Positions 1 through 27,859 of a DNA stretch of 64,000 nt are shown here, piece by piece; the first letter of the stretch is position 1, and each line of letters begins with the position of its first letter. The translations under genes and the position numbers were made by a program. Source of the DNA: a virus; UHGV virus genome UHGV-0248979. One strand, 5' to 3'. The notes below the pieces were generated by a model. That model did no database searches. It was given only the letters and a program-made list of their open reading frames with translations, and was not told the origin of the DNA.

Positions 1-238
1 AGAACAACGGTTGCGACGCAGCGATCAGTTCTTCAGGCTGTTCACGCGCAACACAAAGTAAGCGTATCAAATCAGGGTTAGAATCCGATAAAATATACCG
101 GCTGTAATTCGTATTTAGGAAAACAGACCCTGCACCCACAAACGGTTCTACAAAGGTTGTACGTTTAGGCAAGACCTTTTGTAATTCCCCTAAAACACGT
201 GTTTTCCCACCCATCCACTTAATAATTGGTTTCCGCAT
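1..238 (-). CDS. dam: DNA adenine methyltransferase (Dam-like), N-terminal part only; gene runs off the window start
   Basis: Minus-strand translation from ATG at 238 gives MRKPIIKWMGGKTRVLGELQKVLPKRTTFVEPFVGAGSVFLNTNYSRYILSDSNPDLI..., closely matching the N-terminus of E. coli Dam as recalled (KWAGGK, VEPFVGAGSVFLNT, SRYIL, DLI). Absent from ORF track because truncated. Overlaps the 3' end of the upstream gene. Confidence 0.8.
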   Translation of the reverse strand, partial: MRKPIIKWMGGKTRVLGELQKVLPKRTTFVEPFVGAGSVFLNTNYSRYILSDSNPDLIRLLCVAREQPEELIAASQPLF

Positions 239-1217
239 TATATCCGCCTTGTAACGATGATACTTCGTCGCCTAACACCAGCTCGACACGATTTTTCCGA
301 CGCTCCCAACTGACGACGTCATCGTCGCGCACTAAAACAAATTCGTACTCGTAGGACCGAAATTTAAATAATTCGACGACCAGGTGTCTAAATGCAGGGT
401 TGTTATTGAAACACCCTATCTCCAATGGTGCCGCTGTTGTCGATGCAATCTGCAGAGCACGGTATAACAAAGTCCGTCCGATACCACGCCCCCGATGTGT
501 TTCACTTACCGCAATGGCTTTTAATTCACACTCGTTAAGATTACGCAATTTAACTTGCACCACGCCCACAACATCGTTGCCGTCCATCCAAACGTAGGTG
601 TGGTGGTTGACGTGACGTACTAACTCCACCAACGTTTCGACTTGTGGCATGATTTGTCGTGAGCGGCCCACAGGGTCAGCGTTGATGTTTTCAACTACGC
701 TCGCGCCTAAAAGCAACATAAGCTGTTCTCGTTGTGCAGCGGTTAACTCTTTATAAAAATCACCAGAGATGTTCTTCACGTTCGTTGGTAGAGCGATATC
801 CAATAACGAGCGTGTACCTAAACGGTATGTGGTGTGGGTGTGTCTAAATCCTAAGTCATTAAGCTCAGAGATTTCTTCTACACCACTGGCGATTCGATTA
901 AGATACGTAAAACCGGTGTAGTCGAGTACCAGTAGTAGGTTCAGTTTGTTCAAACAACCTGGTACAATTTCATGCATATACAAGCAGTGTAACGTTGGAT
1001 CGCCGTAAATGTGTTTTGTGATGATAAACCCTTGAATTGTTTTTCCTTTTTGTAAAGAGAACGTATTCAGTTCACTATTGCACAACGCCTCACGAATCAC
1101 CGCACCGTTAGGGCCAGATAAACAAGCCTGAAGTTGAGGGTTGCGAATATCTCTACGTGCTAACCGACCTACTGTTAAATCCGTGGCGGTACGTTCTATA
1201 GTCTTCCTAAAAGCCAT
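219..1217 (-). CDS. Two-domain protein with C-terminal GNAT acetyltransferase domain
   Basis: 332-aa ORF; C-terminal part has GNAT motif A-like HRGRGIGRTLL; N-terminal ~200 aa unrecognised. SD AAGGAG upstream of ATG at 1217. Confidence 0.6.
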   Translation of the reverse strand: MAFRKTIERTATDLTVGRLARRDIRNPQLQACLSGPNGAVIREALCNSELNTFSLQKGKTIQGFIITKHIYGDPTLHCLYMHEIVPGCLNKLNLLLVLDYTGFTYLNRIASGVEEISELNDLGFRHTHTTYRLGTRSLLDIALPTNVKNISGDFYKELTAAQREQLMLLLGASVVENINADPVGRSRQIMPQVETLVELVRHVNHHTYVWMDGNDVVGVVQVKLRNLNECELKAIAVSETHRGRGIGRTLLYRALQIASTTAAPLEIGCFNNNPAFRHLVVELFKFRSYEYEFVLVRDDDVVSWERRKNRVELVLGDEVSSLQGGYNAETNY

Positions 1218-1265
1218 GTTAATTACTCCTTAAAAGGTCGTCTCAAAACAATACGCTAAAGCTGT

Positions 1266-1300
1266 AAAAACAAAAAAGAAAGGGGAACCGAAGTTCCCCA
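1266..1300 (-). terminator. intrinsic terminator
   Basis: Hairpin GGGGAAC-CGAA-GTTCCCC preceded on plus strand by an A-run; just downstream of stop at 1312. Confidence 0.6.
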
Positions 1301-1311
1301 ATTATTAAACA

Positions 1312-1968
1312 TCACGCAAAAGGGGCAGAGCTTGTGAAAGCAAGATTGGGTGTCATGCCAGCTTTCCCTAATTTTTCATACAGGTAATTGAAAAATCTGA
1401 GATGGACCTCGTAGTGGCCAGTCGCTACTCGCTGGCCGTAAACTTCTACCAAGTCAGGCGAAAACTTAATATGGCAGTTTTGTCTAGAGAACAAAGGTTG
1501 TTGCACCCCACCCTTAATTAAGATGCGATACTTTTTACCATCGTCTGTTACGGCGTGAAGAATATTTGTATTGAAATGGAAATAGATAGAAGGGTTAAAA
1601 CTCAACCAGTCGGCAGCATTGACTAGTAGGTCAGCTAACTTAACACCGATTTTGTCAAGTTCAGGCCCTTCAAACTTATGCATTAACCGCAGGAGAATTT
1701 CAGTAATAACCGTACCTGTAAGTAACTTGTCTCTATTAAGGCCAGGCGCAACCGCCAAAATGTCGCCATTATAAGTGCAGACAAGTGTGAATAAGTTGAA
1801 AGGCTGGTCTTGATAAAAATCGAAAACCAGGTCAGTATACGGATTAAAAGTTAAGAATTTCACCCCAATTATTTCATTAACGCAGGGTAAAAGTTCAACC
1901 TTCGCAGCCGGTTGAACTTCGTTGGCTTTAGTCTCGTTCTTTACAGTTTCTTTAGTTTTCGGTGCCAT
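1312..1968 (-). CDS. hypothetical protein
   Basis: 218-aa ORF, SD AGGAG upstream of ATG, hairpin terminator downstream; no motif recognised. Confidence 0.5.
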   Translation of the reverse strand: MAPKTKETVKNETKANEVQPAAKVELLPCVNEIIGVKFLTFNPYTDLVFDFYQDQPFNLFTLVCTYNGDILAVAPGLNRDKLLTGTVITEILLRLMHKFEGPELDKIGVKLADLLVNAADWLSFNPSIYFHFNTNILHAVTDDGKKYRILIKGGVQQPLFSRQNCHIKFSPDLVEVYGQRVATGHYEVHLRFFNYLYEKLGKAGMTPNLAFTSSAPFA

Positions 1969-1989
1969 GATATTACTCCTTCAGGTTGA

Positions 1990-2349
1990 TTAGTGTGTTA
2001 CAGTGTTAGTGATAAAACGCACATTCTTCTTGGTACGTTTAATGGACGTGTTTGCAACGTAGTCCAATGCGGACTCTACGTGAACGGTTACTGAGCAACG
2101 ACCCTTAACGGAATTAAAACTAATCTGATATTTCAGACGAATCGCATCAGCAACTTTCATCATAATCGGCAAGCTTAAACGTTCTACGCGTTCGTTCTTA
2201 ATAGATGAGATAACGGGTTGTGAAACTTTCGCAAGCTGGGCAAGCTCACGCTGGGTAATGTCTTTCGTGGTCAAATGACAAACTACGTAAGACAAATGAA
2301 GGCCAAATTTACGTTTTGCCAGAACGATGGAATTGTGATTGTAAGCCAC
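1990..2349 (-). CDS. XRE-type helix-turn-helix DNA-binding protein (candidate early regulator)
   Basis: 119-aa ORF with HTH-like ITQRELAQLAKVSQPVISSIKN; apparent GTG start at 2349 preceded by AGGAG; conserved upstream motif at 2398-2423. Confidence 0.55.
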   Translation of the reverse strand: MAYNHNSIVLAKRKFGLHLSYVVCHLTTKDITQRELAQLAKVSQPVISSIKNERVERLSLPIMMKVADAIRLKYQISFNSVKGRCSVTVHVESALDYVANTSIKRTKKNVRFITNTVTH

Positions 2350-2397
2350 GGTAATACTCCTTTAGGTTAACAAGTCGGTGTAAAGAGTTAATTGTAA

Positions 2398-2423
2398 CTC
2401 TCACCTAAGTAATATATATCTGA
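2398..2423 (-). promoter_or_regulatory. conserved promoter-like motif, copy 1 (candidate phage early promoter)
   Basis: Plus-strand CTCTCACCTAAGTAATATATATCTGA; on coding strand TCAGATATATATTACTTAGGTGAGAG, 48 nt upstream of start at 2349. Confidence 0.45.
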
Positions 2424-2462
2424 GAAAAAATAAAATATAGGTACCACCGTTGGGTGGTACCT
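2424..2462 (-). terminator. intrinsic terminator
   Basis: Hairpin GGTACCACC-GTTG-GGTGGTACC preceded by A-rich run; downstream of tmk stop. Confidence 0.6.
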
Positions 2463-2468
2463 AAGCGG

Positions 2469-3092
2469 TTAGTTTGCTAAAATGTACGTAACAATCTCTG
2501 CGGCTTTCAAACGGTAATCGTCATTCTGCGTTACCGGTAATAACGCGTGAAGACAACCGCCTTCTGTTAAGATGTGGTGCGCGAATCGATAACGGTCACG
2601 TAAACCATCCCAACATTGGTTGTCCTTTAGATACTTAACTGTAAGTACCTCATCATCCCAATTCTTACCTTGTTCTTCTACACGTTTCTTAAATCGTGTT
2701 AACGCTGTTGGGTAATCAACATCTGTCCAAACATAAAGGTCAGGAGTGTGGAAATGACGAGTTAGCTTACGTTGGAAAACCACATCCTTACCATCTGTCC
2801 CCTGATAAACGATCGTTGAAGGACAGAAGCGATCGAAAATAACGACATCGTACTCGTCAACAACATGGTCCAACGTGTGAAGGAAATCATCACACATCGC
2901 TTCAGCAATTTTTGTATTCGAAGCAGACTGTACAACCAAACTGCGTGCACGAATGCCCGCCTCGGTTTCAGATGTCGGATGGTTCCGAACGCAAACTTTT
3001 AATCCGGCGGATTCCAACATCGCTTTTACCATTTTACACAACGTTGATTTCCCAGAAAAGTCAGGACCATCAATAGACACTGTCTTAAGCAT
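2469..3092 (-). CDS. tmk: thymidylate (dTMP) kinase
   Basis: 207-aa ORF with N-terminal P-loop VSIDGPDFSGKSTL and downstream DRF motif, the thymidylate kinase arrangement; ATG at 3092 verified; terminator downstream. Confidence 0.7.
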   Translation of the reverse strand: MLKTVSIDGPDFSGKSTLCKMVKAMLESAGLKVCVRNHPTSETEAGIRARSLVVQSASNTKIAEAMCDDFLHTLDHVVDEYDVVIFDRFCPSTIVYQGTDGKDVVFQRKLTRHFHTPDLYVWTDVDYPTALTRFKKRVEEQGKNWDDEVLTVKYLKDNQCWDGLRDRYRFAHHILTEGGCLHALLPVTQNDDYRLKAAEIVTYILAN

Positions 3093-3161
3093 TATAGTTT
3101 TACCTTTTTACGCACGTTAAGTGAAACTTCTCACAATGAGGGTAACAGTTGTAATAATTTA

Positions 3162-3210
3162 CAATAAAAAAGAAACCCGCCCCTACCGTTAAGTAGGGGT
3201 AAGGTTTTAT
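3162..3210. terminator. hairpin terminator (bidirectional-looking)
   Basis: CCCCTAC-CGTTAA-GTAGGGG flanked by A-run and T-run. Confidence 0.5.
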
Positions 3211-3812
3211 TGGTGGTCAACAATCGGACCACTCCACACTTCTGACGTTTCCGGTGAGGTGAGGTTAGCAGCCTGTGCAGAAGTTACGCACAGCAAGACT
3301 AACCCTTGTTTAGCAAGATAATGTTGCATTCTTGCTGCCTGCACGGCGGTGTCCACAATAACGAGCTCAGCGTCACGTAGAAGCGTTAGAGCTGCTTGCC
3401 CCTCTTGCGGTGTGGTTAAAGCATCACTGTCGTCCAGAATGCGTTTAAGGCGGTTATACGCCAACCCAGTTACATTACTCCGACCTGCACGAAGATCAAC
3501 GACCATATTGCTGTATTCCCCCACCACTTGTTGCGTCGAGTTTGGATAAAATCGAAACGCAGCACGGCGACGTTTACGTCGCACCTCAGAAATCGCGCGT
3601 TGTAAAACCAGCAATACGTATTTCGGAGCCGCTTCGCTATTCGGTCGACGCATCTTGGCTAAACGTGCAGCTAAATCCAAAATTTTCGTTAAGGGATAGC
3701 GGTGTTTAAACCCGTCACGTTCGATAGTAACGCCACGTTTAGGCAACTTGCCTGTTTTGTTGATATACGATACTGTAATCAATAGTAATGAATCGAGAAT
3801 CATCTCTGACAT
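3207..3812 (-). CDS. hypothetical protein
   Basis: 201-aa ORF in co-directional block; no motif recognised. Confidence 0.5.
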   Translation of the reverse strand: MSEMILDSLLLITVSYINKTGKLPKRGVTIERDGFKHRYPLTKILDLAARLAKMRRPNSEAAPKYVLLVLQRAISEVRRKRRRAAFRFYPNSTQQVVGEYSNMVVDLRAGRSNVTGLAYNRLKRILDDSDALTTPQEGQAALTLLRDAELVIVDTAVQAARMQHYLAKQGLVLLCVTSAQAANLTSPETSEVWSGPIVDHQ

Positions 3813-3826
3813 TACAAGGCCCTCTC

Positions 3827-4198
3827 TTAGAACCCCTCAAGAACAGCTTTCACAAATTCGTAAACCGTGCGTCGGTGTTCTTCAAGCGGATAAACAAACT
3901 TAGAATAATCGTTGTTCCAGACAACCGGATAGAGGTCGCCATCACAACTTAAATAGCTCTTACGAACCATGTAATAATCTAAACCTACACGGAAGTTTAA
4001 CGACAGACTACCGTGTTTACTACAAACGTGTAGCTGGAGCGATTTCACACCGTCGTGAGTTGGCGATTCAATCGTTTCCGCATACAATACATCCGAACAC
4101 TGTTCTATAGCGCTAACGACATCTCTGAGGTTGTTGTCTGCATCGATGGTCGCTTTTCGGAGAGCGTCGGTGTATTGCTGAAGTTCTCGATAGAACAT
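3827..4198 (-). CDS. hypothetical protein
   Basis: 123-aa ORF; AGGAGA SD 8-9 nt upstream of ATG at 4198; overlaps 3' end of upstream gene. Confidence 0.45.
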   Translation of the reverse strand: MFYRELQQYTDALRKATIDADNNLRDVVSAIEQCSDVLYAETIESPTHDGVKSLQLHVCSKHGSLSLNFRVGLDYYMVRKSYLSCDGDLYPVVWNNDYSKFVYPLEEHRRTVYEFVKAVLEGF

Positions 4199-4737
4199 CC
4201 TGCTAATCTCCTGTCTCTACCGTAAGGTAGGGGAAATGCTTTGTGTTCATATTCTGCAACGACATACGCAGGATAGAACAAAAGGTATTTATAGAACGTA
4301 GACAACGTAACGTTTTTCTGGGTGGCTAAAAAGTAATTAAGATCGGGGTTGTCTGGAAAAGCAAAATGCAATCCTGTGTATACCTGACCTTTATACTCCC
4401 CATTAAAGGGTGTGACTGCACATCGTGGGTGTGTCGGCTCGACGTGTAACCAACGACTTCTTACGTGATAAACGCCACGGACTGTCGCGTTTCGTGTTTT
4501 ACCCAAATAACGACAACGAATATTCTTTTCCCACGCCGCACGTTGAGTGGGTGAACCCAGAGAAACAAACCGCGTTAAAGCTTCAGGTGTAAAGTAATCA
4601 AAAATGCCGGTCGGTAAACACCAACACGCTTTATCGATTCGTACCACTCTCCAACCAGGACGAAAACCCACAGCGTAACGCTCTACACCAAAAGTATATC
4701 TAGACCCGTCATGAAACGGTACTAATCTTGCAGCCAT
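4105..4737 (-). CDS. hypothetical protein
   Basis: 210-aa ORF immediately downstream of the GNAT gene; no motif recognised. Confidence 0.45.
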   Translation of the reverse strand: MAARLVPFHDGSRYTFGVERYAVGFRPGWRVVRIDKACWCLPTGIFDYFTPEALTRFVSLGSPTQRAAWEKNIRCRYLGKTRNATVRGVYHVRSRWLHVEPTHPRCAVTPFNGEYKGQVYTGLHFAFPDNPDLNYFLATQKNVTLSTFYKYLLFYPAYVVAEYEHKAFPLPYGRDRRLAGCSIENFSNTPTLSEKRPSMQTTTSEMSLAL

Positions 4738-4738
4738 T

Positions 4739-5206
4739 TTAGATTTCCTTTATCATTTCCCTGCATTCGGTACGGAATCCCATCTTCTCATACAAGGAGA
4801 TAGCTTTAACGTTGTTGTCTAACACATCCAGACTCATCCAACCACAGCCTTTGGACTTTCCGTATTCACGGACTTTGTCCATAAGCGCACGGCCTACCCC
4901 TTGAGAGCGTGCTTCAGGAACCACATAGTAATTCCCGATGTAAACAAACGTGTCCTTTGAGCAAGAACCCATTGAGAACGTCATAAATCCCAGAAGCTGT
5001 TCGTTGTCGTCCACCGCACACGCACAGAGATAATCTTGAGGCCAAATCTCTTCTAAACGTTCGATGGGGTTGAACGTGTCACGTCCGGTTAACTGACTAA
5101 TACGCACTTTCTCTTCTGCGAACAGCATGTTGTGCAGTTTGAGTACCTGGTCGCCGTATAACTTTCCGTATTTACTGTCGGGTTTGAGAATAATAGTAAT
5201 ACGCAT
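4739..5206 (-). CDS. GNAT family N-acetyltransferase
   Basis: 155-aa ORF with canonical GNAT motifs (VPEARSQGVGRALM; NNVKAISLYEKMGF); ATG at 5206 overlaps upstream stop (TAATG). Confidence 0.8.
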   Translation of the reverse strand: MRITIILKPDSKYGKLYGDQVLKLHNMLFAEEKVRISQLTGRDTFNPIERLEEIWPQDYLCACAVDDNEQLLGFMTFSMGSCSKDTFVYIGNYYVVPEARSQGVGRALMDKVREYGKSKGCGWMSLDVLDNNVKAISLYEKMGFRTECREMIKEI

Positions 5207-6339
5207 TATTTAACCTCAATCAGCGACAACCTGCACCATTCCAGTAAGCCCTCCGCAACACGCACCAACGAAGTAGTAAAGGCATCTTCTAAACGCAGCG
5301 CGTTTTTATACCGGACAGTAGCATCGCGTAACTCACGGCCATCTAACGATTTCAGCTCTTTTTTCATTCGCTGAACTTCATCGTAAATACCGGTATAACC
5401 AACACTACGTCGTTTCGTACCACGCTGACGTAACGCTCGGATAATGTTTCTAACAGCGTCTAGAGCTGAACCGATTTCGTGCAAGTTCAGAGATTTGATT
5501 GTGTGGCCAAAATCACCATCGCGGGCAATCGCCCACTCAATCTTACCGTTGTCGTGTTCAACGACCACCACGTTACCAGGCCACGGATACGCTTTCACCG
5601 TTTTAAACGGATCAATAATACCGAACAGTCCTGCGCTTCGTTTAATCGCCCAGTTCGTCGACCGACCCACTTTCTCCAAACCGCTCTCGGTAACTTTCTT
5701 GCTCTTACCGATAATAGTGCGTGTTTTAACGGTATACTCGTTGACCATCGCATCCATTGCGCTCAGGTTCTTACTGAATTCAATACATGCTTTTACGTTA
5801 GGCTTGTCTTCTAAACAAACTTTGGTTGTCCAACTTCCCGTGTCGCAGTCGACAGGCTTTAACGTGTCCTTGATGCCGAGTAAACTTAGCTTTGCGGTTA
5901 ACTTTTGCAGTTTGCGTTCTAAAGTCGTCGCTTTAGACGTCGCTTCTTTTAATTCCTTTATGACTTCTTTACCGGCGGCTTCCGCGAAGTCGACAAAACG
6001 TAACGCAAGTTGCTTAGAATGCTTACCTGCGAAGTTTCCAGTTGCCTTAGCCCCCGCTACCGCTGCCTTTCCAGCAACACGACTAGCCCCTTTAACCGCT
6101 CTGCCGGTCGCGCGTGCGACCGCTTTACCTACTCCTGCGTAAGGCTCAGTGTCCGCAACAAATTGCGCGCGTTCCATCATCGCTGCAGACTCTAGCGCAA
6201 CCTGCACATCGTCTAAAACCCACCGTTTTCGGATAGCGACAATCGCCGGATAATTGTCTTTAACATTAAGCGACTCTAACGCGACCAATCGATCGTAGTC
6301 ATCGCAAAGGACTTCTAAATCGGAATCTAATGTTGACAT
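5206..6339 (-). CDS. hypothetical protein
   Basis: 377-aa ORF; Ala/Lys-rich central region; no motif recognised. Confidence 0.5.
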   Translation of the reverse strand: MSTLDSDLEVLCDDYDRLVALESLNVKDNYPAIVAIRKRWVLDDVQVALESAAMMERAQFVADTEPYAGVGKAVARATGRAVKGASRVAGKAAVAGAKATGNFAGKHSKQLALRFVDFAEAAGKEVIKELKEATSKATTLERKLQKLTAKLSLLGIKDTLKPVDCDTGSWTTKVCLEDKPNVKACIEFSKNLSAMDAMVNEYTVKTRTIIGKSKKVTESGLEKVGRSTNWAIKRSAGLFGIIDPFKTVKAYPWPGNVVVVEHDNGKIEWAIARDGDFGHTIKSLNLHEIGSALDAVRNIIRALRQRGTKRRSVGYTGIYDEVQRMKKELKSLDGRELRDATVRYKNALRLEDAFTTSLVRVAEGLLEWCRLSLIEVK

Positions 6340-6389
6340 CCTTTACCCCATTTTAAGCTAAAGCGGGGAGAAGCCCGCCCTGACTAACT

Positions 6390-6938
6390 TCATAATAAGC
6401 GTAGGTCTTCTAACCACTTAGATGCATCCGTAACATGATAATAGCAAGGGATGTTCAGTGACTGCGCATAGCGGACACCCATTGCTGTACCACCTTTTGG
6501 ATTTCCCTTTTTATCGTGTTCAGCGTAATAATAGACCGCATCTACGGGGTTGTCTAAAGCGTCACCGGATACAATATTTAAGTTTCGTCCATGCAAAGCC
6601 CAAGCTATATCCGATAGCTTATCGGGATTAGGGTGAAGCGATGCCACAATCCCACGATAACGAATGTCTTGAGGGATAACGAGAAAGTCAACATTCGGAT
6701 GTAACTTACGTAACCACAACTTACGATCGTCGGGCAAATAGCAAATATGTGGACCTGGTTCAGTACGCGCTAACATAAACTGTAATTGGTCTGGCCCTTT
6801 ATAACAACCACCCGAACGGGTTTCGATTTTGTGCTGTTTATTACGAAGAATTTTGAACCCGCGTTGCAACACGTCCAACATTTCTTGCATCGTGTCTTCG
6901 GGAGTTTCTCGAGAACCAATAATAGCGATTTTATACAT
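6390..6938 (-). CDS. hypothetical protein, possibly Rossmann-fold SLOG/DprA-like
   Basis: 182-aa ORF starting MYKIAIIGSRE..., reminiscent of SLOG/DprA-type N-termini; assignment weak. Confidence 0.35.
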   Translation of the reverse strand: MYKIAIIGSRETPEDTMQEMLDVLQRGFKILRNKQHKIETRSGGCYKGPDQLQFMLARTEPGPHICYLPDDRKLWLRKLHPNVDFLVIPQDIRYRGIVASLHPNPDKLSDIAWALHGRNLNIVSGDALDNPVDAVYYYAEHDKKGNPKGGTAMGVRYAQSLNIPCYYHVTDASKWLEDLRLL

Positions 6939-6967
6939 TTGTCACCTCCATACTGAAGTTGTGAAGT

Positions 6968-7010
6968 GAAAAAAAGAAAGCAGGAGAGAACCCCGAAAAG
7001 GTTCTCTCCT
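6968..7010 (-). terminator. intrinsic terminator
   Basis: 10-bp stem GGAGAGAACC...GGTTCTCTCC preceded by A-run; downstream of stop at 7024. Confidence 0.6.
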
Positions 7011-7023
7011 ATCGTTGACGATA

Positions 7024-7686
7024 TCACTCTTCTAAACTACTTAAAACGGCAGTTTCGAGTAACGCTTTACCCATCCAGACATCCAACTCACCATCTAAGT
7101 CAGCTAAAGGGCGCTTATCCAGTTCGTTGTTGTAGTTAAGTCCGTCAAGGGTTTTATTCGTAATAATTTGCCCAATATGAAGCGGTAGAATAAAACGATT
7201 TCGTGCGCTATAAATAAACGAATCACATTCGTAAACTACCGCATAGCGCTCAAGATCGTCATCATACTCAACATGGCACTGCGAGCCAGTGTCCCATGCA
7301 CGTGACAAAACCATACCACGATCTTGACACATCTTCTCTACTGACGCTTTCGCGGACTTTGCCCATTTATCGTAATTTTTCGGTTGGCCGTTTTCGAAAT
7401 CGAACCAATCCAGATACTTACCGGGAATCTCAAGAAAGTCGTTTAGTTGAAGTTTTGTGTAAGATACCATCACCGCGTCATTAATATCGTTGCGGTTAGT
7501 TAACTTTACCCGATACCGACCTTCCGGTGTGGGTGCACCCATTAAAGAAACATCCACTTTCTCAGCCGAAAGCTTTTTACGTACACTGCCGTTATTACAG
7601 TAGCTGACGAGGTTGAGTAAGTTCTGTCTATGACCAACTTCAAAATCAATTACAAAAGACATACAAACTCCGCGGGGGTTAATCAC
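7024..7686 (-). CDS. hypothetical protein
   Basis: 220-aa ORF; terminator hairpin downstream (6968-7010). Confidence 0.5.
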   Translation of the reverse strand: MINPRGVCMSFVIDFEVGHRQNLLNLVSYCNNGSVRKKLSAEKVDVSLMGAPTPEGRYRVKLTNRNDINDAVMVSYTKLQLNDFLEIPGKYLDWFDFENGQPKNYDKWAKSAKASVEKMCQDRGMVLSRAWDTGSQCHVEYDDDLERYAVVYECDSFIYSARNRFILPLHIGQIITNKTLDGLNYNNELDKRPLADLDGELDVWMGKALLETAVLSSLEE

Positions 7687-8078
7687 TAATACCCGTATAA
7701 CGGGTAGCGTGCGGTGATCTCATCACCGACATAAAAAGTTAAACGTTGGATTTTAATACTTTTATTTACATAGGGTACAGTTTCTAACGTTACCTTTACA
7801 CCGGCAGAACAGCTTCCAGGATCAACAAACTGATATGTACGTCGTTTGATATTTACCAAATAGTAGCCACCCGCTGGGCACAGTTCGGTTTTGCCATAAT
7901 TTACCGTGGCAAACTCATCGTTTTGAACCGCAACGACTGGTTGGTCGGTAGATTTAAATACGACAGGTTTATCCCCTGGCACCGTAGGTTCAAAACGACT
8001 AATATCGTGCGGTTTAAATTCCGCTATCGCGGAAAATGAAAGTAACGTTAGAAAAAGGGTAATAACAGATCTTTTCAT
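7686..8078 (-). CDS. secreted/periplasmic protein with N-terminal signal peptide
   Basis: 130-aa ORF; N-terminus MKRSVITLFLTLLSFSAIA looks like a Sec signal peptide; ATG at 8078 verified. Confidence 0.5.
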   Translation of the reverse strand: MKRSVITLFLTLLSFSAIAEFKPHDISRFEPTVPGDKPVVFKSTDQPVVAVQNDEFATVNYGKTELCPAGGYYLVNIKRRTYQFVDPGSCSAGVKVTLETVPYVNKSIKIQRLTFYVGDEITARYPLYGY

Positions 8079-8554
8079 CAGTATACCTCATCAAGATGTT
8101 CGCGTAGCCATGGTTTCGACTCTAAGCGCGGAATCATGTTCCGCGTGTTCGGCGAAAACCATAACGCTTCGCGATATTTCTTTTTGAAACGTTCCCAGTG
8201 ATACGAGAATGGCTTGGGTGTAAAACCGCGCTCTTTTAGCACCTCCTCCCAAACCAAGTCTTTAATAAAATCATCCACTAAAATTAATACCAGCGCTTTC
8301 CATTTACTACGTCGGTAGTGCCGTGTAAAAGATTTGCGGAGATCAGAAAAGTCCTCTCGTCGCCGAGAACGTACTACTGGAGTTGCCTTCTCTTTAAATT
8401 GCGAACAAGGATTATGTTCTATTATCGTTACAGGAACACCCCGAACACGACCTGTACGCAAGTCAATCTCGTGAGCGGGGATAACTTCAACGCAACGTAA
8501 CACTTTTGCTTTATTGCCTTCCAAGCACCGCGTCTCATATTCGACACGAATCAT
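8078..8554 (-). CDS. hypothetical protein
   Basis: 158-aa basic ORF; stop overlaps downstream start. Confidence 0.5.
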   Translation of the reverse strand: MIRVEYETRCLEGNKAKVLRCVEVIPAHEIDLRTGRVRGVPVTIIEHNPCSQFKEKATPVVRSRRREDFSDLRKSFTRHYRRSKWKALVLILVDDFIKDLVWEEVLKERGFTPKPFSYHWERFKKKYREALWFSPNTRNMIPRLESKPWLREHLDEVY

Positions 8555-8573
8555 TTTGGGCTCTCAACCATTT

Positions 8574-9050
8574 CTAATAAATCTTATCCGCAACAGAGAG
8601 AAAGATGGGGGTGTTTTCAATAAAATCCACCAAATATCCTTCTTCTGGCGGGGTGTATGACGAATCAATGTTACTGTTCGTCATACGAAAATACCGACGG
8701 GAGTCACTGGCAATAAACCATCGGTCTATTTGGAAGCCTTTTTTGGAAAAGAAACACAGCCCGTCGATGTTTGAGGGATGAACACGACACATCACCATTT
8801 GACGATCTGAATTGAGTTGAACGTATTTCAGTAAAAAGGAACCTACACCACTGCGACGAGAACCCTCGGCCACCACCAGATAAATAAGATTCCCCGGTTC
8901 CCAGATTGCAACCCCATGTGTAATATCGTCTTCAACGGCCAAAGTGATTCTAACCGGCGTTTCACGAATCGAATTTAAGTCTTTCACATATTCGCACAAT
9001 TCAGGAAATTTAGCAGAGATTTTGTCTTCGGTAATATTTAACGGTTGCAT
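8574..9050 (-). CDS. GNAT-like acetyltransferase
   Basis: 158-aa ORF with GNAT motif A-like AEGSRRSGVGSFLL and motif B-like FFSKKGF. Confidence 0.55.
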   Translation of the reverse strand: MQPLNITEDKISAKFPELCEYVKDLNSIRETPVRITLAVEDDITHGVAIWEPGNLIYLVVAEGSRRSGVGSFLLKYVQLNSDRQMVMCRVHPSNIDGLCFFSKKGFQIDRWFIASDSRRYFRMTNSNIDSSYTPPEEGYLVDFIENTPIFLSVADKIY

Positions 9051-9712
9051 TATTGTTCCCCTATCGATAAAACATTTTTAACAAATTCATCCCACGTGGT
9101 GTTCCCACCAGAAGTAAATAAACTGCTAAGTGGGACGTTTCGATGTTGTGGAATAATTGCATCGAGTTTCGTTACTGGAACTTCGCTCCATAAAGCCCAA
9201 CCGTACAACCCTTCCACCGTTTTTCTCTCACCACGTAGGGTCGGCACCCACCAAGCAAACTGAATGAATCTTTTACCGCGACAGATTTTAAGGGCGGTAG
9301 TAAAACCGTGGTCTAACATCCGAACGTCGTCAAACTTACAATTAATCGAGAAAATACCATAGCGGGTGAGTAATCTCCTTATCTGAAGTCTTAGGTCATT
9401 CTGATACTCGTTCAATTCGACAGCGTCTACAAAAACCTGTCCCTTCCCAACCCCAAACCCTTTCTTTTCTAAGTGCTCCGCTATTAACGCAGACGTACTC
9501 CCCTCCACACCCGGACAATCTAAACTGCCGGATAAAGGCACTGCACGATAATAGCGATGGACCGTCTCTTGAAAAGCGGTCGTAACAATTTTTTCGTCTT
9601 TAACGAAATCAACAATTTCCCCATTAGAGGCGACCAACGGTCCAACCTTCAGCTCCTGAATAGGTATCAGCAACGTTCTGGTCATTAAGCGTAACGGTTC
9701 CACAATTAACAC
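9050..9712 (-). CDS. hypothetical protein
   Basis: 220-aa ORF; no motif recognised. Confidence 0.5.
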   Translation of the reverse strand: MLIVEPLRLMTRTLLIPIQELKVGPLVASNGEIVDFVKDEKIVTTAFQETVHRYYRAVPLSGSLDCPGVEGSTSALIAEHLEKKGFGVGKGQVFVDAVELNEYQNDLRLQIRRLLTRYGIFSINCKFDDVRMLDHGFTTALKICRGKRFIQFAWWVPTLRGERKTVEGLYGWALWSEVPVTKLDAIIPQHRNVPLSSLFTSGGNTTWDEFVKNVLSIGEQ

Positions 9713-9749
9713 TCCTTCTTTTAAGTCTCACACTATGTTTAAAAATTGT

Positions 9750-9800
9750 AAAAATAAAAAGAAGTAACCTCTACCCGAAGGTAGAGGTTAATATTATTTC
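9750..9800. terminator. hairpin terminator
   Basis: AACCTCTACC-CGAA-GGTAGAGGTT with A-rich and T-rich flanks. Confidence 0.55.
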
Positions 9801-10372
9801 GTTGTTGGGCTTTCTGTCTTCGACTTAAGCTGGCCTGATTTCTCAAGCTTCTTCTCAACAACTTTTGTGGCTATCTCAAGAGACTTATAAGCCAACGTTT
9901 TAATCGGCCAAGTCGCAAAAACAACCAATGCAAAGAACGGTACCAACGTCACAATCAGAACATCTAGACTGTCTTCTGGAAAATGTTGATGTGTGTCGTA
10001 ACCCAGGAACCCCGTTACAATAACCGTCGCCAACGTCAGAATGGCAATAATGAACTTCTGGGAAGCGGCTAATTTCGGCCATAAGGTTAGCATGGTTTCT
10101 TTACTAACCTCATCCCCGAGAGATTCCACAGCATCAGTTGCCTGCTGATGGAATTGTTCTGATAGTTTGCCTAAATTATCAATTAACGTCGGTCGTAAGT
10201 CGGAAAGAATCTTTGTTCCCGAACGGGTAACGTCAACATCGACTTCATCCCCATACGCCGCTTTCAAGAGTTTCGTTAACTGTTCAGATTGTTCTTTACT
10301 TAACTTTTTGTTTCCAGCTTGAATCAGCAAGTCAAGTATTTCAGTGGGTAGTGCTTGTGTGCTTGGTTCCAT
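9794..10372 (-). CDS. membrane protein (two predicted TM helices)
   Basis: 192-aa ORF; hydrophobic stretches FIIAILTLATVIVTGFLGY and VLIVTLVPFFALVVFATWPI; ATG at 10372 verified. Confidence 0.5.
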   Translation of the reverse strand: MEPSTQALPTEILDLLIQAGNKKLSKEQSEQLTKLLKAAYGDEVDVDVTRSGTKILSDLRPTLIDNLGKLSEQFHQQATDAVESLGDEVSKETMLTLWPKLAASQKFIIAILTLATVIVTGFLGYDTHQHFPEDSLDVLIVTLVPFFALVVFATWPIKTLAYKSLEIATKVVEKKLEKSGQLKSKTESPTTK

Positions 10373-11016
10373 TAACGTTTTCTCCGACGCCTTCTCCGCC
10401 TGGAGGTCTTAGTCGACTTTTGTTTAGGCGGTAGCAAGCTATTTAAGTTTAACAGATTTACCCTGACGAAAATATTTCCCACCGCCACAGCATCAATGCT
10501 GTGCTCATCTAACGTTGTAATATCAAACAAAGCATGTTCACGGTAGAGCTTGGTCACGGCCCGAAACATATCGGTTTTATCCGTCCCCTTCGCTTCCACC
10601 CCAACGAATGATTTTACAATGATAGGATTGAAGCCGTGTAAAATTTTCTCCGGGTAAATATCCCACAAAGTACGTCGCAACATTAATTGTAGTTCGACGC
10701 CAGATTCATAAGCGGAGAGTTTTGCTCTCCGCATGAACGGTGTCTCAGTTGCAACGAAAGTTGGGCAGGCAATCCGAAGAAATTCACGGTAACAAGCTTC
10801 GAGCTTAACTAAACGATCGTCACGTTTACCGACACACTCTGCGAACGCATTTGGATGCGTTGGGTCTAATACATGCATGGTATCAGCCCAAACCACTTCG
10901 GCTTGATCGCTGCCGTATTCCCAATCCAATACTGCCATACCAAGATGGCTCGTACCGGGGTCTATTGCCGCGATTCTTACCATCTTATCTGGAAGTCTCG
11001 GCTCGGGTATCAACAT
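10372..11016 (-). CDS. RuvC-like Holliday junction resolvase with poly-arginine C-terminal tail
   Basis: 214-aa ORF; N-terminal IAAIDPGTSHLGMAV resembles RuvC ILGIDPGSRVTGYGV, with later acidic residues in RuvC-like positions; C-terminus is RRRRRRRKR; ATG at 11016 verified. Confidence 0.7.
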   Translation of the reverse strand: MLIPEPRLPDKMVRIAAIDPGTSHLGMAVLDWEYGSDQAEVVWADTMHVLDPTHPNAFAECVGKRDDRLVKLEACYREFLRIACPTFVATETPFMRRAKLSAYESGVELQLMLRRTLWDIYPEKILHGFNPIIVKSFVGVEAKGTDKTDMFRAVTKLYREHALFDITTLDEHSIDAVAVGNIFVRVNLLNLNSLLPPKQKSTKTSRRRRRRRKR

Positions 11017-11903
11017 CAGTTAGCTGTCCCCAGGAAGAACGGCGCAGGTTGTCCGATGCGAATGGTCAAAGACAGTTTGTCATTCGTCTGTGCCAGGTTG
11101 GTAAACATCGAAATATAGTACAGCGCCTGGACCCCAATCGCCTCGTTATAGCTGAATTTAGACCCAGCTGCAGAATCCCCGGACGCTACCTGGTCTAACC
11201 CAGAACAGAGTGCCAGTTCAGAGATAATTGAACTACGCGGACTACCACGCATAATGCTCGTTACGTTCATGTATTCCTGAACATCAAAGTCTGTCCACGG
11301 AATAACCAGGTCAGCACCAGATTCGACATAACGTCCGTCTGGAATTGCGACAGTACCATCGTCATCGTAATCGTAATCCGGCAATACTTTCGGCACGGGG
11401 TTTAATTCCGTGTCTGTGTACACAAAGTCTTCGACCGTCTCAACGCCGTTCTCACGCTTGATATCGTAGTCTGACGTTTTTACAGCACGCATGTCGATAC
11501 GTTTTAAGTAATACGCCCAATACTGACGTTTATTGATGGTTTCCAGAGTACGGAAGGCGTATTTCTTACGCTGTTCGTCAGACAGATCATTGTCTTTTGT
11601 ACGCAGGACAAACGGAACGCGGGAAAACATCCCGGAAGCAATAGGTTCTTTACCTACAGGTACAACGTCAGCCACCACATCAGAGGTGTCGACCATATGA
11701 CCACGGTTGCCAATTGCCATGTACTGCAAATGAGGACGCGCTTTACCATCCGGCACTGGCGTTTGCATGAGTTTATAGAACTCATTCAGTGTGGATTTTT
11801 GTGGGTATTGCACGTCAGCACCGGTAATTAATGCGGTAGCTAAACGCATCGCATTAAGCGTTACCGTCGAGAGTTTACCGTCGTAAACTTTGACATTAGA
11901 CAT
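11016..11903 (-). CDS. hypothetical protein
   Basis: 295-aa ORF; no motif recognised. Confidence 0.5.
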   Translation of the reverse strand: MSNVKVYDGKLSTVTLNAMRLATALITGADVQYPQKSTLNEFYKLMQTPVPDGKARPHLQYMAIGNRGHMVDTSDVVADVVPVGKEPIASGMFSRVPFVLRTKDNDLSDEQRKKYAFRTLETINKRQYWAYYLKRIDMRAVKTSDYDIKRENGVETVEDFVYTDTELNPVPKVLPDYDYDDDGTVAIPDGRYVESGADLVIPWTDFDVQEYMNVTSIMRGSPRSSIISELALCSGLDQVASGDSAAGSKFSYNEAIGVQALYYISMFTNLAQTNDKLSLTIRIGQPAPFFLGTAN

Positions 11904-12423
11904 TGATTAATTCTCCTGGGCGGAACCCATCCAACGCCAATTTCGTCACAAGAGACGCCAATTTGCGTGGAGTGGAATCAGTAAATACGACCGGAATCGT
12001 TCCTTTAAAAGACAAATGATTCGGGACGAGACGAACATCATAAGAATCCAGTTCCTCTGAAATCGGCTCAATCATAATGTCGTCGGCACGCAGGTCGAGC
12101 CCTGTTTGTGCGACGATATAATCAGCCAACTCTTCGCTGGACGTTACTGCGCCTTTCGGTACACTCACCGGTTCATCGGCCAAGAACGTTGCCAAATCAA
12201 CGCGAGTTAAAATGAATTCCTGGTTACCGACAACGCCGTTACGGAAGACGGCAGCAACCTTTGATTCTAGTCCGTAACGTTGACGTTCTGCTAAGGTTAG
12301 CGGTTGAACGCCGTTTGCGTTAAACTCGATGTTATCAGCAGTATAGGATAGACTAAATACGTAGTTAATCCGGTCTACTAAAATTTGTTTAGGTGCTTTC
12401 GTTAAATCGACACGATATGCCAT
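11896..12423 (-). CDS. hypothetical protein
   Basis: 175-aa ORF; no motif recognised. Confidence 0.5.
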   Translation of the reverse strand: MAYRVDLTKAPKQILVDRINYVFSLSYTADNIEFNANGVQPLTLAERQRYGLESKVAAVFRNGVVGNQEFILTRVDLATFLADEPVSVPKGAVTSSEELADYIVAQTGLDLRADDIMIEPISEELDSYDVRLVPNHLSFKGTIPVVFTDSTPRKLASLVTKLALDGFRPGELINV

Positions 12424-27299: not shown

Positions 27300-27461
27300 T
27301 TATCTCCTTAGAGGTGGTTGCTGAACATTGTGGTTGTTAACCGTTTTCGGTGCCGCAACGAGGCCGAGACGAACATATTCGTCCATGCGTTGGTTAAACT
27401 GAATTTGTTTTTCACGATTTCGCATCGCGGTATTGAACATCTGTATTTGATATTCGTTCAT
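27300..27461 (-). CDS. small protein, copy 1 of a tandem paralogue family (53 aa)
   Basis: Below ORF-track size cutoff. MNEYQIQMFNTAMRNREKQIQFNQRMDEYVRLGLVAAPKTVNNHNVQQPPLRR; AAAGG SD upstream; H3-type hairpin right after the stop. Confidence 0.4.
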   Translation of the reverse strand: MNEYQIQMFNTAMRNREKQIQFNQRMDEYVRLGLVAAPKTVNNHNVQQPPLRR

Positions 27462-27520
27462 TTTTCATTACCTTTCGTAATGTTGTAAAAACGTCAACAA
27501 CTTTATGTGTTGACACCGTA

Positions 27521-27610
27521 CAGCAGAGACTGGCGGAACAGCCTCTGCTGCTTTAACTTCTCTTTCGAAAAGTTAAAGCTATGAAAAGGGGTGGTGGTGC
27601 ACCCCTTTTT
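27521..27610. repeat. three-hairpin module, copy A (candidate structured RNA / regulatory element)
   Basis: H1 27521-27550 (CAGCAGAG...CTCTGCTG), H2 27550-27579 (GCTTTAACTT-loop CTCTTTCGAA-AAGTTAAAGC), H3 27584-27609 (AAAAGGGGTG...CACCCCTTTT). Confidence 0.45.
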
Positions 27611-27685
27611 ATTATACCTACGACCACCATCTCGGCAGGTTACTGTACGAGGAGGAGAGGCGTGTCAGCGCCTCTCCTTTATTTG

Positions 27686-27859
27686 TTAGTAGTGTTCACT
27701 CCTCTTTTCGGTGAATATCTGCGTGAAACGGTTGGTAGACGGTTTTAACCGTTTATCCATGCCGAGCTGACTATACTTGTAGATACGTTGCTGTAAATTG
27801 GTCTTTGCTGCACTCTGTTCTGCAAGCATTTTGTCAGTAAAGTAGTAACCATTGTTCAT
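27686..27859 (-). CDS. small protein, copy 2 of tandem paralogue family (57 aa)
   Basis: MNNGYYFTDKMLAEQSAAKTNLQQRIYKYSQLGMDKRLKPSTNRFTQIFTEKRSEHY; AAGAGGG SD upstream; hairpin 27654-27677 right after stop; shares C-terminal consensus with copy 3. Confidence 0.45.
   Translation of the reverse strand: MNNGYYFTDKMLAEQSAAKTNLQQRIYKYSQLGMDKRLKPSTNRFTQIFTEKRSEHY

What the first reader, a model, noticed from the sequence alone, without database searches (positions are those of the whole stretch)
1..9050. Cluster of three GNAT acetyltransferases with Dam methyltransferase, thymidylate kinase and an HTH regulator
Within 9 kb there are three GNAT-motif proteins (219-1217, 4739-5206, 8574-9050), a Dam-like methyltransferase, dTMP kinase, an HTH protein behind the promoter-like motif, a secreted protein and a possible SLOG/DprA-like protein. 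Three acetyltransferases is unusual for a phage and suggests host-takeover or anti-defence functions such as modification of host proteins or nucleotide pools.
Basis: partly seen in the sequence, partly recalled or inferred. Interest (0 to 1): 0.5.

Follow-up and report, generated by a model that had tools for sequence, protein, structure and literature searches.

The report
Conserved jumbo-phage gene block, three acetyltransferases
The three acetyltransferase genes, the Dam methylase, the thymidylate kinase and the HTH regulator are all real, but they form an ordinary gene block already annotated in SPN3US-like giant phages and are three unrelated, separately transcribed enzymes, not a dedicated host-takeover cluster.

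Summary
The window comes from an undescribed relative of Salmonella phage SPN3US and the Erwinia jumbo phages. The 1-12 kb stretch is collinear, gene for gene, with SPN3US_0084-0105 and with Asesino, phiEaH2, Caitlin and Kwan. Those records already annotate the three acetyltransferases, Dam, tmk, HTH and the DprA-like gene.

- **GNAT2 (4739-5206)** is the syntenic ortholog of the phiEaH2 and Caitlin proteins shown experimentally to N-acetylate spermidine. The SPN3US ortholog was inactive in the same assay.
- **GNAT3 (8574-9050)** is the ortholog of SPN3US_0088, whose crystal structure is PDB 7DQG. Its substrate is unknown.
- **GNAT1 (219-1217)** models as a tandem GNAT with a degenerate N-terminal half. 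Its 3' end overlaps the Dam start codon.

The three proteins show no pairwise similarity. Strong terminators place them in three separate transcription units, mixed with an internal head protein and a SLOG/DprA-fold protein. The clade's conserved early-promoter motif sits only in front of the HTH gene. The upstream regions of the GNAT units carry different motifs.

The parts
1..238 (-). N-terminal 79 codons of a D12-class (Dam-type) N6-adenine DNA methyltransferase. The gene runs off the left edge of the window, and its ATG (238-236) overlaps the last 20 nt of GNAT1.
   Evidence: Translation MRKPIIKWMGGK...EPFVGAGS. PF02086 E=3e-17. The full 271-aa gene with DPPY is in L008, the scaffold whose GNAT1 is 98% identical.
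219..1217 (-). GNAT1, 332 aa, a tandem GNAT-fold protein. The N-terminal half (about aa 14-133) is degenerate and lacks the CoA motif. The C-terminal half (about aa 147-296) is catalytic-type and carries RGRGIGR.
1240..1269 (-). Non-early promoter-like motif TTTTACA-N-TGAGAC upstream of GNAT1/Dam.
   Evidence: TTTTTACR-N13-TGTG is found at the same place in SPN3US and Caitlin, and a looser match in Kwan.
1282..1299 (-). Intrinsic terminator ending the HTH/218-aa unit.
   Evidence: GGGGAACTTCGGTTCCCC followed by a T-run.
1312..1968 (-). 218-aa protein of unknown function, syntenic with SPN3US_0103.
   Evidence: (no family hit).
1990..2349 (-). Cro/C1-type HTH DNA-binding protein, 119 aa.
   Evidence: HTH_37 1.7e-7, HTH_26 8e-7, HTH_3 5.5e-5. 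phrog_7126 2.8e-31.
2402..2422 (-). Clade-conserved AT-rich early-type promoter motif CAGATATATATTACTTAGGTG, followed by the small hairpin GAGAGTTA..TAACTCT.
   Evidence: Three exact or near-exact copies in the window against 0 expected. This is the only DNA in 1-9100 that is at least 81% identical to SPN3US-type genomes. Conserved in SPN3US, Asesino and phiEaH2. One copy per syntenic locus. It fits the description of jumbo-phage early promoters in PMC7598289.
2438..2463 (-). Intrinsic terminator after tmk.
2469..3092 (-). Thymidylate (dTMP) kinase, 207 aa.
   Evidence: PF02223 2.6e-19. phrog_761 6.8e-39. TIGR00041 scores 57 bits, below its equivalog cutoff.
3180..3199 (-). Intrinsic terminator ending the DprA-like/IP/GNAT2 unit.
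3207..4737 (-). Three conserved genes of unknown function: 201 aa (3207-3812), 123 aa (3827-4198) and 210 aa (4105-4737). The last two overlap by 94 nt.
   Evidence: phrog_8075, phrog_8535 and phrog_9255. The same genes and the same overlap are in SPN3US_0096-0098 and relatives.
4739..5206 (-). GNAT2, 155 aa, a member of the phage spermidine N-acetyltransferase family. Its start overlaps the stop of the internal head protein gene (ATGA).
   Evidence: Acetyltransf_1 2.6e-19. phrog_3810 1.6e-44. It is 50% identical over its full length, and syntenic, to phiEaH2 YP_007237670, and 45% to Caitlin YP_009292176; both are active SATs. The closest solved relative is SSAT2, 2BEI.
5206..6339 (-). phiKZ-type internal head protein, 377 aa.
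   Evidence: PF12699 29.2 bits against a cutoff of 27. phrog_2497 1.9e-73. The SPN3US homolog gp94 was detected by mass spectrometry of heads (PMC10052503).
6390..6938 (-). SLOG-superfamily, DprA-like Rossmann protein, 182 aa.
6945..6952 (-). TATGGAGG, 16 nt after the terminator T-run, immediately upstream of the DprA-like gene. It resembles the phiKZ late-promoter core TATG.
   Evidence: TAT(A)GGAGG is present at the same place in SPN3US, Caitlin, Kwan and Asesino, making 5 of 5. The phiKZ late TATG is described in PMC7598289.
6981..7011 (-). Strong intrinsic terminator (14-bp stem) ending the GNAT3 unit.
7024..8554 (-). Three conserved genes: 220 aa (7024-7686), a 130-aa protein with a Sec-type signal peptide (7686-8078) and 158 aa (8078-8554).
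   Evidence: phrog_10571, phrog_5248 and phrog_9187. The signal peptide MKRSVITLFLTLLSFSAIA was read directly.
8574..9050 (-). GNAT3, 158 aa, a minimal GNAT and ortholog of SPN3US_0088 (PDB 7DQG). Its start overlaps the stop of the upstream 220-aa gene.
   Evidence: phrog_7861 1.3e-69. 7DQG 1e-62. The SRRxG motif and 44 invariant columns across 5 genera.
9050..9712 (-). 220-aa protein of unknown function and first gene of the GNAT3 unit. It is preceded by TTTTACA-N-GTGTGAGAC (9725-9753) and the terminator at 9765-9790.
   Evidence: phrog_8034 3.7e-12..

Best explanation
**What it is.** This is the conserved 'accessory' gene block of an SPN3US-like, phiKZ-related jumbo phage. It lies next to the virion-structural and RuvC-like genes and is read right to left. 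The window also encodes a major head protein, a multisubunit RNAP beta subunit and a DNA polymerase.

**How it is organised.** The three GNATs are three independent, anciently acquired enzymes, not one system. The block contains at least six terminator-bounded units:
1. 220 aa, GNAT3, 158 aa, the secreted protein and 220 aa.
2. The SLOG/DprA-like protein, the internal head protein, GNAT2 and three unknown genes.
3. tmk.
4. HTH and the 218-aa protein, behind the clade's early (virion-RNAP-type) promoter.
5. GNAT1 and Dam.

**Most likely functions.**
- GNAT2 acetylates spermidine or a related polyamine using acetyl-CoA. This lowers free polyamine in the infected cell. The activity is shown for orthologs and inferred here.
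- GNAT3 is an acetyl-CoA-dependent N-acetyltransferase of unknown acceptor. Its fold is shown by the ortholog's crystal structure.
- GNAT1 is a tandem GNAT in which only the C-terminal half binds acetyl-CoA and the degenerate N-terminal half probably shapes the acceptor site, as in MshD-type enzymes. This is inferred from the model. GNAT1 is co-expressed with the Dam methylase.

**Timing (inferred from motifs only).** HTH is early. GNAT1/Dam, the GNAT3 unit and tmk share a middle-like motif, TTACR-N13-TGTG. The unit containing the internal head protein and GNAT2 has a late-like TAT(A)G.
For: - **Synteny:** the block is collinear gene for gene with SPN3US, Asesino, phiEaH2, Caitlin and Kwan.
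- **Distribution:** each GNAT is found in 48-62 genomes of this clade and, apart from a few weak GNAT2 matches in other phages, nowhere else among 50,697 phage records.
- **GNAT2:** its orthologs have experimentally shown SAT activity (PMC9992855). The Asp in the VLDNN segment is shared with SSAT2 (VLDWN) and with the active orthologs, and is Gly in the inactive SPN3US protein.
- **GNAT3:** it is the ortholog of the protein solved as 7DQG.
- **Independence:** there is no pairwise similarity among the three.
- **Transcription signals:** terminators; early motif; other motifs.
- **Context:** major head protein, RNAP beta subunit and DNA polymerase elsewhere in the window.
Against: - The SPN3US ortholog of GNAT2 (48% identical) gave no N-acetylspermidine in the same assay, so SAT activity of the window protein is not guaranteed.
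- The temporal classes rest on motif analogy with phiKZ. No transcript data for this clade could be read, because the SPN3US proteome time course PMC6384053 is not held.
- The middle-like motif is imperfect upstream of the window's own GNAT1, and its pattern was derived post hoc.
- Terminator read-through from the early promoter into GNAT1/Dam cannot be excluded.
- The GNAT1 model has only 8 sequences behind it (pLDDT 78.8).
Confidence: 0.8

Rival explanations
1. The three GNATs, with Dam, tmk and HTH, would form a coordinated early host-takeover or anti-defence module. It would acetylate host proteins such as RNAP or ribosomal proteins (like phiKMV/LUZ19 Rac), defence effectors (like AcrVA5), or nucleotide pools.
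For: - An early-type promoter lies inside the block.
- Jumbo-phage GNATs have been predicted to modify host RNAP or ribosomal proteins (PMC7824862).
- The authors of PMC9992855 speculate that an early-expressed phage SAT could blunt CRISPR adaptation and restriction fidelity.
- The acceptors of GNAT1 and GNAT3 are unknown, so protein targets are not excluded.
Against: - The early motif precedes only the HTH unit. GNAT2 and GNAT3 lie upstream of it on the transcribed strand, and the next early copy is 20 kb away.
- There are three separate terminator-bounded units.
- GNAT2 is translationally coupled to a head protein.
- The three proteins are mutually unrelated.
- None reaches any NCBIfam equivalog cutoff, RimI included.
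- There are no PADLOC hits.
Confidence: 0.12
2. GNAT1 and the overlapping Dam methylase would form a DNA-modification pair. The tandem GNAT would add or process an acyl group on DNA or on a nucleotide, by analogy with the GNAT-fold Mom enzyme of phage Mu, alongside N6-adenine methylation.
For: - The GNAT1 stop overlaps the Dam start by 20 nt in the window and in L008.
- The two genes are adjacent in SPN3US, Caitlin and Kwan.
- GNAT-superfamily DNA-modifying enzymes are described in jumbo phages (PMC7824862).
Against: - Erskineviruses (Asesino, phiEaH2) keep Dam but have lost GNAT1, so Dam does not need it.
- The whole region is collinear, so adjacency alone carries little weight.
- GNAT1 has a canonical acetyl-CoA motif, and its structural neighbours are small-molecule and protein acetyltransferases.
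Confidence: 0.05
3. GNAT2 would be a virion-delivered enzyme. It would be made with the internal head protein, packaged in the capsid and ejected with the DNA, so that it acts at time zero despite late synthesis.
For: - The start/stop overlap or tight linkage of the internal head protein gene and GNAT2 is conserved in five genera.
- SPN3US heads carry many ejection proteins, and gp94 (the internal head protein homolog) is detected in heads.
Against: - gp95 is not mentioned in the three SPN3US head-proteome papers whose main text could be searched. Their supplementary tables were not checked.
- GNAT2 is small, and no propeptide or protease site was examined.
Confidence: 0.06

Closest known systems
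Salmonella phage SPN3US genes SPN3US_0084-0105, and the same block in Erwinia phages Asesino, phiEaH2, Caitlin and Kwan
   Same: Gene order, orientation and content match: RuvC-like, TM protein, X, GNAT3, secreted protein, DprA-like, internal head protein, GNAT2, three unknowns with a conserved overlap, tmk, early promoter, HTH, GNAT1 and Dam. RefSeq already names the three acetyltransferases, the DNA methyltransferase, thymidylate kinase, the HTH protein and the DprA-like protein.
   Different: Protein identities are low: GNAT1 31%, GNAT2 48-51%, GNAT3 61-67%. DNA identity is only about 66-71%, in patches, so this is a distinct lineage. The window lacks the small gene between DprA-like and the internal head protein, and the extra genes between the 201-aa gene and tmk. 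Erskineviruses lack GNAT1.
Phage spermidine N-acetyltransferases of Erwinia phages phiEaH2 (YP_007237670) and Caitlin (YP_009292176), PMC9992855
   Same: GNAT2 is the full-length ortholog in the same position, with the same length (154-155 aa) and 41 invariant residues. These include the RxxGxG motif, the Tyr of the A..Y...GF segment and the Asp of VLDNN.
   Different: Identity is only 45-50%. The equally related SPN3US ortholog was inactive in E. coli delta-speG. The activity of the window protein is untested.
Human SSAT2 / thialysine N-acetyltransferase (PDB 2BEI) and other diamine/polyamine GNATs
   Same: This is the best solved sequence relative of the GNAT2 family (E=3.7e-12 with the family profile), with shared motif A and the VLD(W/N)N..A..LY segment.
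   Different: The match covers only the C-terminal 72 residues. The NCBIfam PaiA (spermidine/spermine N1-acetyltransferase) equivalog cutoff is not reached: 26 bits against 250.
Tandem-GNAT enzymes: mycothiol synthase MshD (1OZP), MAB_4324 (7Q3A), VipF (6WQB), 3TT2
   Different: Sequence identity is 10-13%. The TIGR03448 MshD model scores 19.6 bits against a cutoff of 163. The full-length family is confined to a handful of phage clusters. The substrate is unknown.
PDB 7DQG, 'putative acetyltransferase' (SPN3US_0088)
   Same: GNAT3 is its ortholog (1e-62, about 61% identity over 155 aa), so the GNAT fold is established experimentally for this family.
   Different: No publication or acceptor substrate for 7DQG could be found in the paper library.
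Host-takeover and anti-defence GNATs (phiKMV/LUZ19 Rac acting on the RNAP alpha subunit; AcrVA5 acetylating Cas12a)
   Same: They belong to the same superfamily and show how a small phage GNAT can disable a host protein (Rac: PMC7824862; AcrVA5: my own knowledge).
   Different: No sequence link was found. tblastn of GNAT1 and GNAT3 hit only the SPN3US/Erwinia (and, for GNAT3, Cronobacter) jumbo-phage clade; GNAT2 also gave a few weak matches in Fusobacterium, Pseudomonas OBP and Shewanella phages. No direct comparison with Rac or AcrVA5 was run.

Membership tests
GNAT superfamily (each of the three proteins) | Significant match to a GNAT profile at the curated threshold | tested here: met
   GNAT1 scores 47.5 bits and GNAT2 70.1 bits against the Acetyltransf_1 cutoff of 20.7. 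GNAT3 is below the Pfam cutoff (22.9 against 27), but its ortholog has a solved GNAT structure, 7DQG.
GNAT superfamily (each of the three proteins) | Acetyl-CoA pyrophosphate-binding motif A, Q/R-x-x-G-x-G/A | tested here: met
   Read directly: RGRGIGR (GNAT1), RSQGVGR (GNAT2) and RRSGVGS (GNAT3). The motif is conserved in orthologs. The N-terminal half of GNAT1 lacks it.
GNAT superfamily (GNAT1) | GNAT fold (beta1-alpha1-alpha2-beta2-4-alpha3-beta5-alpha4-beta6) | tested here: met
Phage spermidine N-acetyltransferase (phiEaH2/Caitlin type) | Full-length orthology and conserved genomic position | tested here: met
   100% coverage at 45-50% identity, located directly downstream of the internal head protein gene.
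Phage spermidine N-acetyltransferase (phiEaH2/Caitlin type) | Formation of N-acetylspermidine | not testable with these tools
   This needs expression in E. coli delta-speG followed by LC-MS, as in PMC9992855. One ortholog (SPN3US) failed that test.
Named bacterial GNAT equivalogs (RimI, PaiA, AAC(6'), MshD and others) | Score above the NCBIfam curated cutoff | tested here: not met
   The best hits are RimI at 27, 51.5 and 18.6 bits against a cutoff of 86.4, PaiA at 26 against 250, and MshD at 19.6 against 163.
D12-class (Dam) N6-adenine DNA methyltransferase | PF02086 match and SAM-binding motif I (FxGxG) | tested here: met
   63.6 bits against a cutoff of 22 on the 79-aa fragment, which contains EPFVGAGS.
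D12-class (Dam) N6-adenine DNA methyltransferase | Catalytic motif IV (DPPY) | tested here: inconclusive
   This part of the gene lies outside the window. It is present (ADPPYIP) in L008, the scaffold whose GNAT1 is 98% identical.
Thymidylate kinase | PF02223 match with P-loop and DR(Y/F) motif | tested here: met
   70 bits against a cutoff of 27. GPDFSGKST and FDRF were read directly. The TIGR00041 equivalog cutoff is not reached: 57 against 83.
SLOG superfamily, DprA-like | Rossmann-like SLOG fold with the Gly-rich loops | tested here: met
SLOG superfamily, DprA-like | The SAM and winged-helix domains, and ssDNA/RecA loading, of bona fide DprA | tested here: not met
   The protein has 182 aa and consists of the Rossmann core only. 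There is no Pfam DprA hit. DNA binding is not testable here.
Jumbo-phage early (virion RNAP) promoter | Highly conserved AT-rich element of about 10 nt, repeated upstream of presumed early operons | tested here: met
   The 21-mer occurs 3 times in the window against 0 expected. It is conserved across genera. The criterion is taken from PMC7598289.
Jumbo-phage early (virion RNAP) promoter | Transcription start about 10 nt downstream, with protein-synthesis-independent early transcription | not testable with these tools
   This needs TSS mapping in infected cells.

The most novel reading that the evidence does not exclude
In this phage clade the spermidine acetyltransferase (GNAT2) may not be an early anti-defence device, as has been proposed. 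It may instead be a late function. It is translationally coupled to an internal head protein and sits behind a conserved TAT(A)G late-type promoter. On this reading, polyamine acetylation would be used during head filling, for example to lower spermidine-driven DNA condensation while the genome and the protein bolus are packaged, or to be delivered with the virion. The other two GNATs would be expressed from a separate middle-type promoter class.
Probability: 0.12. Interest if true: 0.5.

Novelty: new member of a known kind. Interest (0 to 1): 0.2.

Why it matters
As a finding it changes little. The gene block is already annotated in the SPN3US, Erskinevirus, Machinavirus and Wellingtonvirus phages. 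One GNAT family has published biochemistry, and another has a deposited crystal structure.

Three results are still useful:
1. The block is a clean, divergent extra lineage for comparative work.
2. One residue difference tracks the one inactive SAT ortholog against the two active ones (Asp to Gly in VLDNN), which gives a cheap mutagenesis test.
3. Conserved promoter-like motifs suggest that the three GNATs belong to different, non-early temporal classes. This bears on the published idea that phage SAT acts early against CRISPR and restriction.

Tried and rejected
- **Sub-classifying the GNATs with NCBIfam:** no equivalog cutoff was reached.
- **PADLOC defence-system models:** only a marginal HTH hit.
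- **Recent paralogy among the three GNATs, or extra copies in the window:** phmmer found none at E<1. A full Pfam scan of the other 43 or so window genes was not done.
- **The 8-mer TATATTAC as a promoter probe:** not significant alone (4 found against 1.8 expected). The 21-mer is significant.
- **The 5' hairpin after the early promoter:** it is present and conserved, but its folding energy is not distinguishable from shuffles (z=-1.9, +0.1, +0.4 and +0.3).
- **Sigma-70 promoter scan:** at chance level (19 found against 20.2 expected).
- **Literature on 7DQG and SPN3US gp88:** nothing relevant.
- **SPN3US infection proteome time course (PMC6384053):** not held.
- **SPN3US virion-proteome papers:** only gp94 is mentioned; gp88, gp95 and gp104 are not.
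- **Sequence search of the DprA-like protein against PDB, Pfam and NCBIfam:** nothing was found. Only the structure comparison resolved it.
- **First homolog search for GNAT1:** only 4 hits. The profile search gave 10, so the AF2 alignment is shallow.

Full report
**1. What is in the sequence**

Positions 1-12,423 are densely packed with minus-strand ORFs.

- **GNAT1 (219-1217, 332 aa):** matches Pfam Acetyltransf_1 at 2.5e-12 over aa 198-278.
- **GNAT2 (4739-5206, 155 aa):** matches at 2.6e-19 over most of its length.
- **GNAT3 (8574-9050, 158 aa):** only a sub-threshold Pfam hit. It matches the PHROG acetyltransferase family phrog_7861 at 1.3e-69 and PDB 7DQG at 1e-62.
- **Other genes:** ORF 2469-3092 is a thymidylate kinase, 1990-2349 is a Cro/C1-type HTH protein, and 5206-6339 is a phiKZ-type internal head protein.
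- **Dam:** the 'Dam-like methyltransferase' is real but truncated. Its ATG at 238-236 overlaps the last 20 nt of GNAT1, and only 79 codons (MRKPIIKWMGGK...EPFVGAGS) lie inside the window. That fragment alone hits PF02086 at 3e-17. The full 271-aa gene, with DPPY, is present on a 225-kb ENA metagenome scaffold whose GNAT1 is 98% identical.
- **Secreted protein:** ORF 7686-8078 starts MKRSVITLFLTLLSFSAIA|EF, a typical Sec signal peptide (read directly).

**2. What the region is**

Elsewhere the window encodes a major head protein, a multisubunit RNAP beta subunit and a DNA polymerase. At the DNA level only patches of the 9-kb region match known phages, at about 66-71% identity. All matches are to SPN3US-like Salmonella/Escherichia/Proteus phages and to Erwinia jumbo phages.

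The annotated records show the same genes in the same order in SPN3US (SPN3US_0084-0105), Asesino, phiEaH2, Caitlin and Kwan. That covers four genera. RefSeq already labels SPN3US gp178, gp171 and gp162 as acetyltransferases. It labels the neighbouring genes as DNA methyltransferase, thymidylate kinase, HTH DNA-binding protein, DprA-like protein and internal head protein.

tblastn finds GNAT1 in 48 phage records, GNAT2 in 61 and GNAT3 in 62. Apart from a few weak GNAT2 matches, all belong to this clade. Erskineviruses have lost GNAT1 but keep Dam. The 'cluster' is therefore an old, vertically inherited block, not a peculiarity of this genome. A comparative survey also reports numerous GNATs across all jumbo-phage groups (PMC7824862).

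**3. Sub-classifying the GNATs**

The three proteins have no detectable pairwise similarity (E>1). None reaches any NCBIfam equivalog cutoff.

*GNAT2.*
- Its syntenic orthologs in phiEaH2 (YP_007237670, 50% identity) and Caitlin (YP_009292176, 45%) produced N-acetylspermidine when expressed in E. coli delta-speG.
- The SPN3US ortholog (YP_009153389, 48%) did not (PMC9992855).
- The family's best solved relative is human SSAT2/thialysine acetyltransferase.
- In the alignment, the acidic residue of the VLDNN segment (VLDWN in SSAT2) is kept in the window protein and in both active orthologs, but is Gly in SPN3US. I infer, without proof, that this may explain the negative SPN3US result, and that the window enzyme is more likely active.

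*GNAT3.*
- PDB 7DQG is 100% identical to SPN3US_0088, so the fold is established for this family.
- No paper or substrate could be found.

*GNAT1.*
- The AF2 model (pLDDT 78.8, built on only 8 sequences) shows two GNAT-topology halves.
- Only the C-terminal half has the CoA motif.
- An exhaustive profile search finds just 7 full-length clusters at E<1e-30 among 1.84 billion representatives.

**4. Transcription architecture**

Five strong minus-strand intrinsic terminators lie in the intergenic gaps: 9790-9765, 7011-6981, 3199-3180, 2463-2438 and 1299-1282. They put the three GNATs in three different units.

The only DNA in 1-9100 that is at least 81% identical to SPN3US-type genomes is the 70 nt upstream of the HTH gene.
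- It contains CAGATATATATTACTTAGGTG. This 21-mer occurs three times in the window (2402-2422, 29563-29583 and 37817-37837, all on the minus strand) against 0 expected.
- It is conserved upstream of the HTH gene in SPN3US, Asesino and phiEaH2.
- It occurs once per syntenic locus.
- This fits the published description of jumbo-phage early (virion RNAP) promoters as highly conserved AT-rich elements of about 10 nt around position -10 (PMC7598289).

GNAT2 and GNAT3 lie upstream of this promoter on the transcribed strand. GNAT1/Dam lie downstream of it, but behind a terminator.

Two other conserved upstream motifs appear.
- **GNAT3 unit, GNAT1 and tmk:** the T-run of the preceding terminator is followed by TTACR-N13-NTGTG in most of the eleven sequences compared from five lineages. 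The motif is imperfect upstream of the window's own GNAT1.
- **DprA-like/IP/GNAT2 unit:** all five lineages have TAT(A)GGAGG 16-20 nt after the T-run. This recalls the phiKZ late core TATG.

These class assignments are inferences from analogy. No transcript data for this clade were available to me.

**5. Interpretation**

The block mixes a virion protein, DNA-metabolism genes, a regulator and three unrelated acetyltransferases. SPN3US gp94, the homolog of the internal head protein, is seen in heads. I find no evidence that the GNATs act together or are early takeover genes. No component resembles a defence-system protein.

That pool is a polyamine, not a nucleotide.

Rival readings remain possible at low probability. 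They are a GNAT1-Dam DNA-modification pair, a virion-delivered GNAT2, and a coordinated early module. Each is listed with its refuting experiment.

**6. Verdict**

The finding is a new, divergent member of an already annotated gene block, and interest is low (0.2).

Noticed in passing
window 2402-2422, 29563-29583, 37817-37837 (all minus strand): Three copies of a 21-nt AT-rich motif, CAGATATATATTACYTAGGTG. Each is followed by a short hairpin (GAGAGTT..AACTCT or GGGATTAT..ATAATCTC). The motif is conserved in SPN3US, Asesino and phiEaH2, and is probably the clade's early (virion RNAP) promoter. The hairpin's folding energy is not significant.
   Followed up: partly
window 29370-29513 (-): An unannotated-size 47-aa ORF, MISVKHKKAIFAVVIAVVLGCLYLD..., with a lipobox-like VLGC and an AGGAG ribosome-binding site. 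It lies directly downstream of the second early-promoter copy and is a candidate early small lipoprotein, of the kind used for superinfection exclusion.
   Followed up: no
window 27300-28120 (-): Three tandem small paralogous ORFs of 53, 57 and 56 aa share ..LG..KRLKPS.N..QIFTE.RS... Each is followed by its own GC-rich hairpin terminator, within a 949-nt stretch that otherwise has no large ORF.
   Followed up: no
window 4105-4198 (-): The 210-aa gene (4105-4737) and the 123-aa gene (3827-4198) overlap by 94 nt in different frames. An overlap of 40-94 nt between the orthologs is conserved in SPN3US, Asesino, Caitlin and Kwan. In the ENA scaffold whose GNAT1 is 98% identical, the 210-aa gene was not called at all.
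   Followed up: partly
window 5206 and 9050 (-): Two conserved ATGA stop/start overlaps: internal head protein with GNAT2, and the 220-aa protein with GNAT3. The same overlaps occur in SPN3US, which suggests translational coupling of each GNAT to its upstream neighbour.
   Followed up: partly
L008 (ENA ERZ28629423, scaffold ROBE23-1_SAMEA112437760_METAG-scaffold_16, 225,038 bp): A near-complete genome-sized metagenome scaffold encodes a GNAT1 98% identical to the window's and shows the same gene order. A partial 90%-identical GNAT1 is deposited as 'Escherichia coli' (P0003), and a related DprA-like protein is deposited as E. coli and Salmonella. These records hint at an enterobacterial host.
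   Followed up: partly
window 9725-9753, 3129-3154, 1240-1269 (-); L004, L006, L007, L001 at equivalent positions: A second conserved promoter-like pattern, TTACR-N13-NTGTG, directly follows terminator T-runs upstream of the GNAT3 unit, tmk and GNAT1 in several genera. A third pattern, TAT(A)GGAGG, lies upstream of the DprA-like gene in all five lineages compared.
   Followed up: partly
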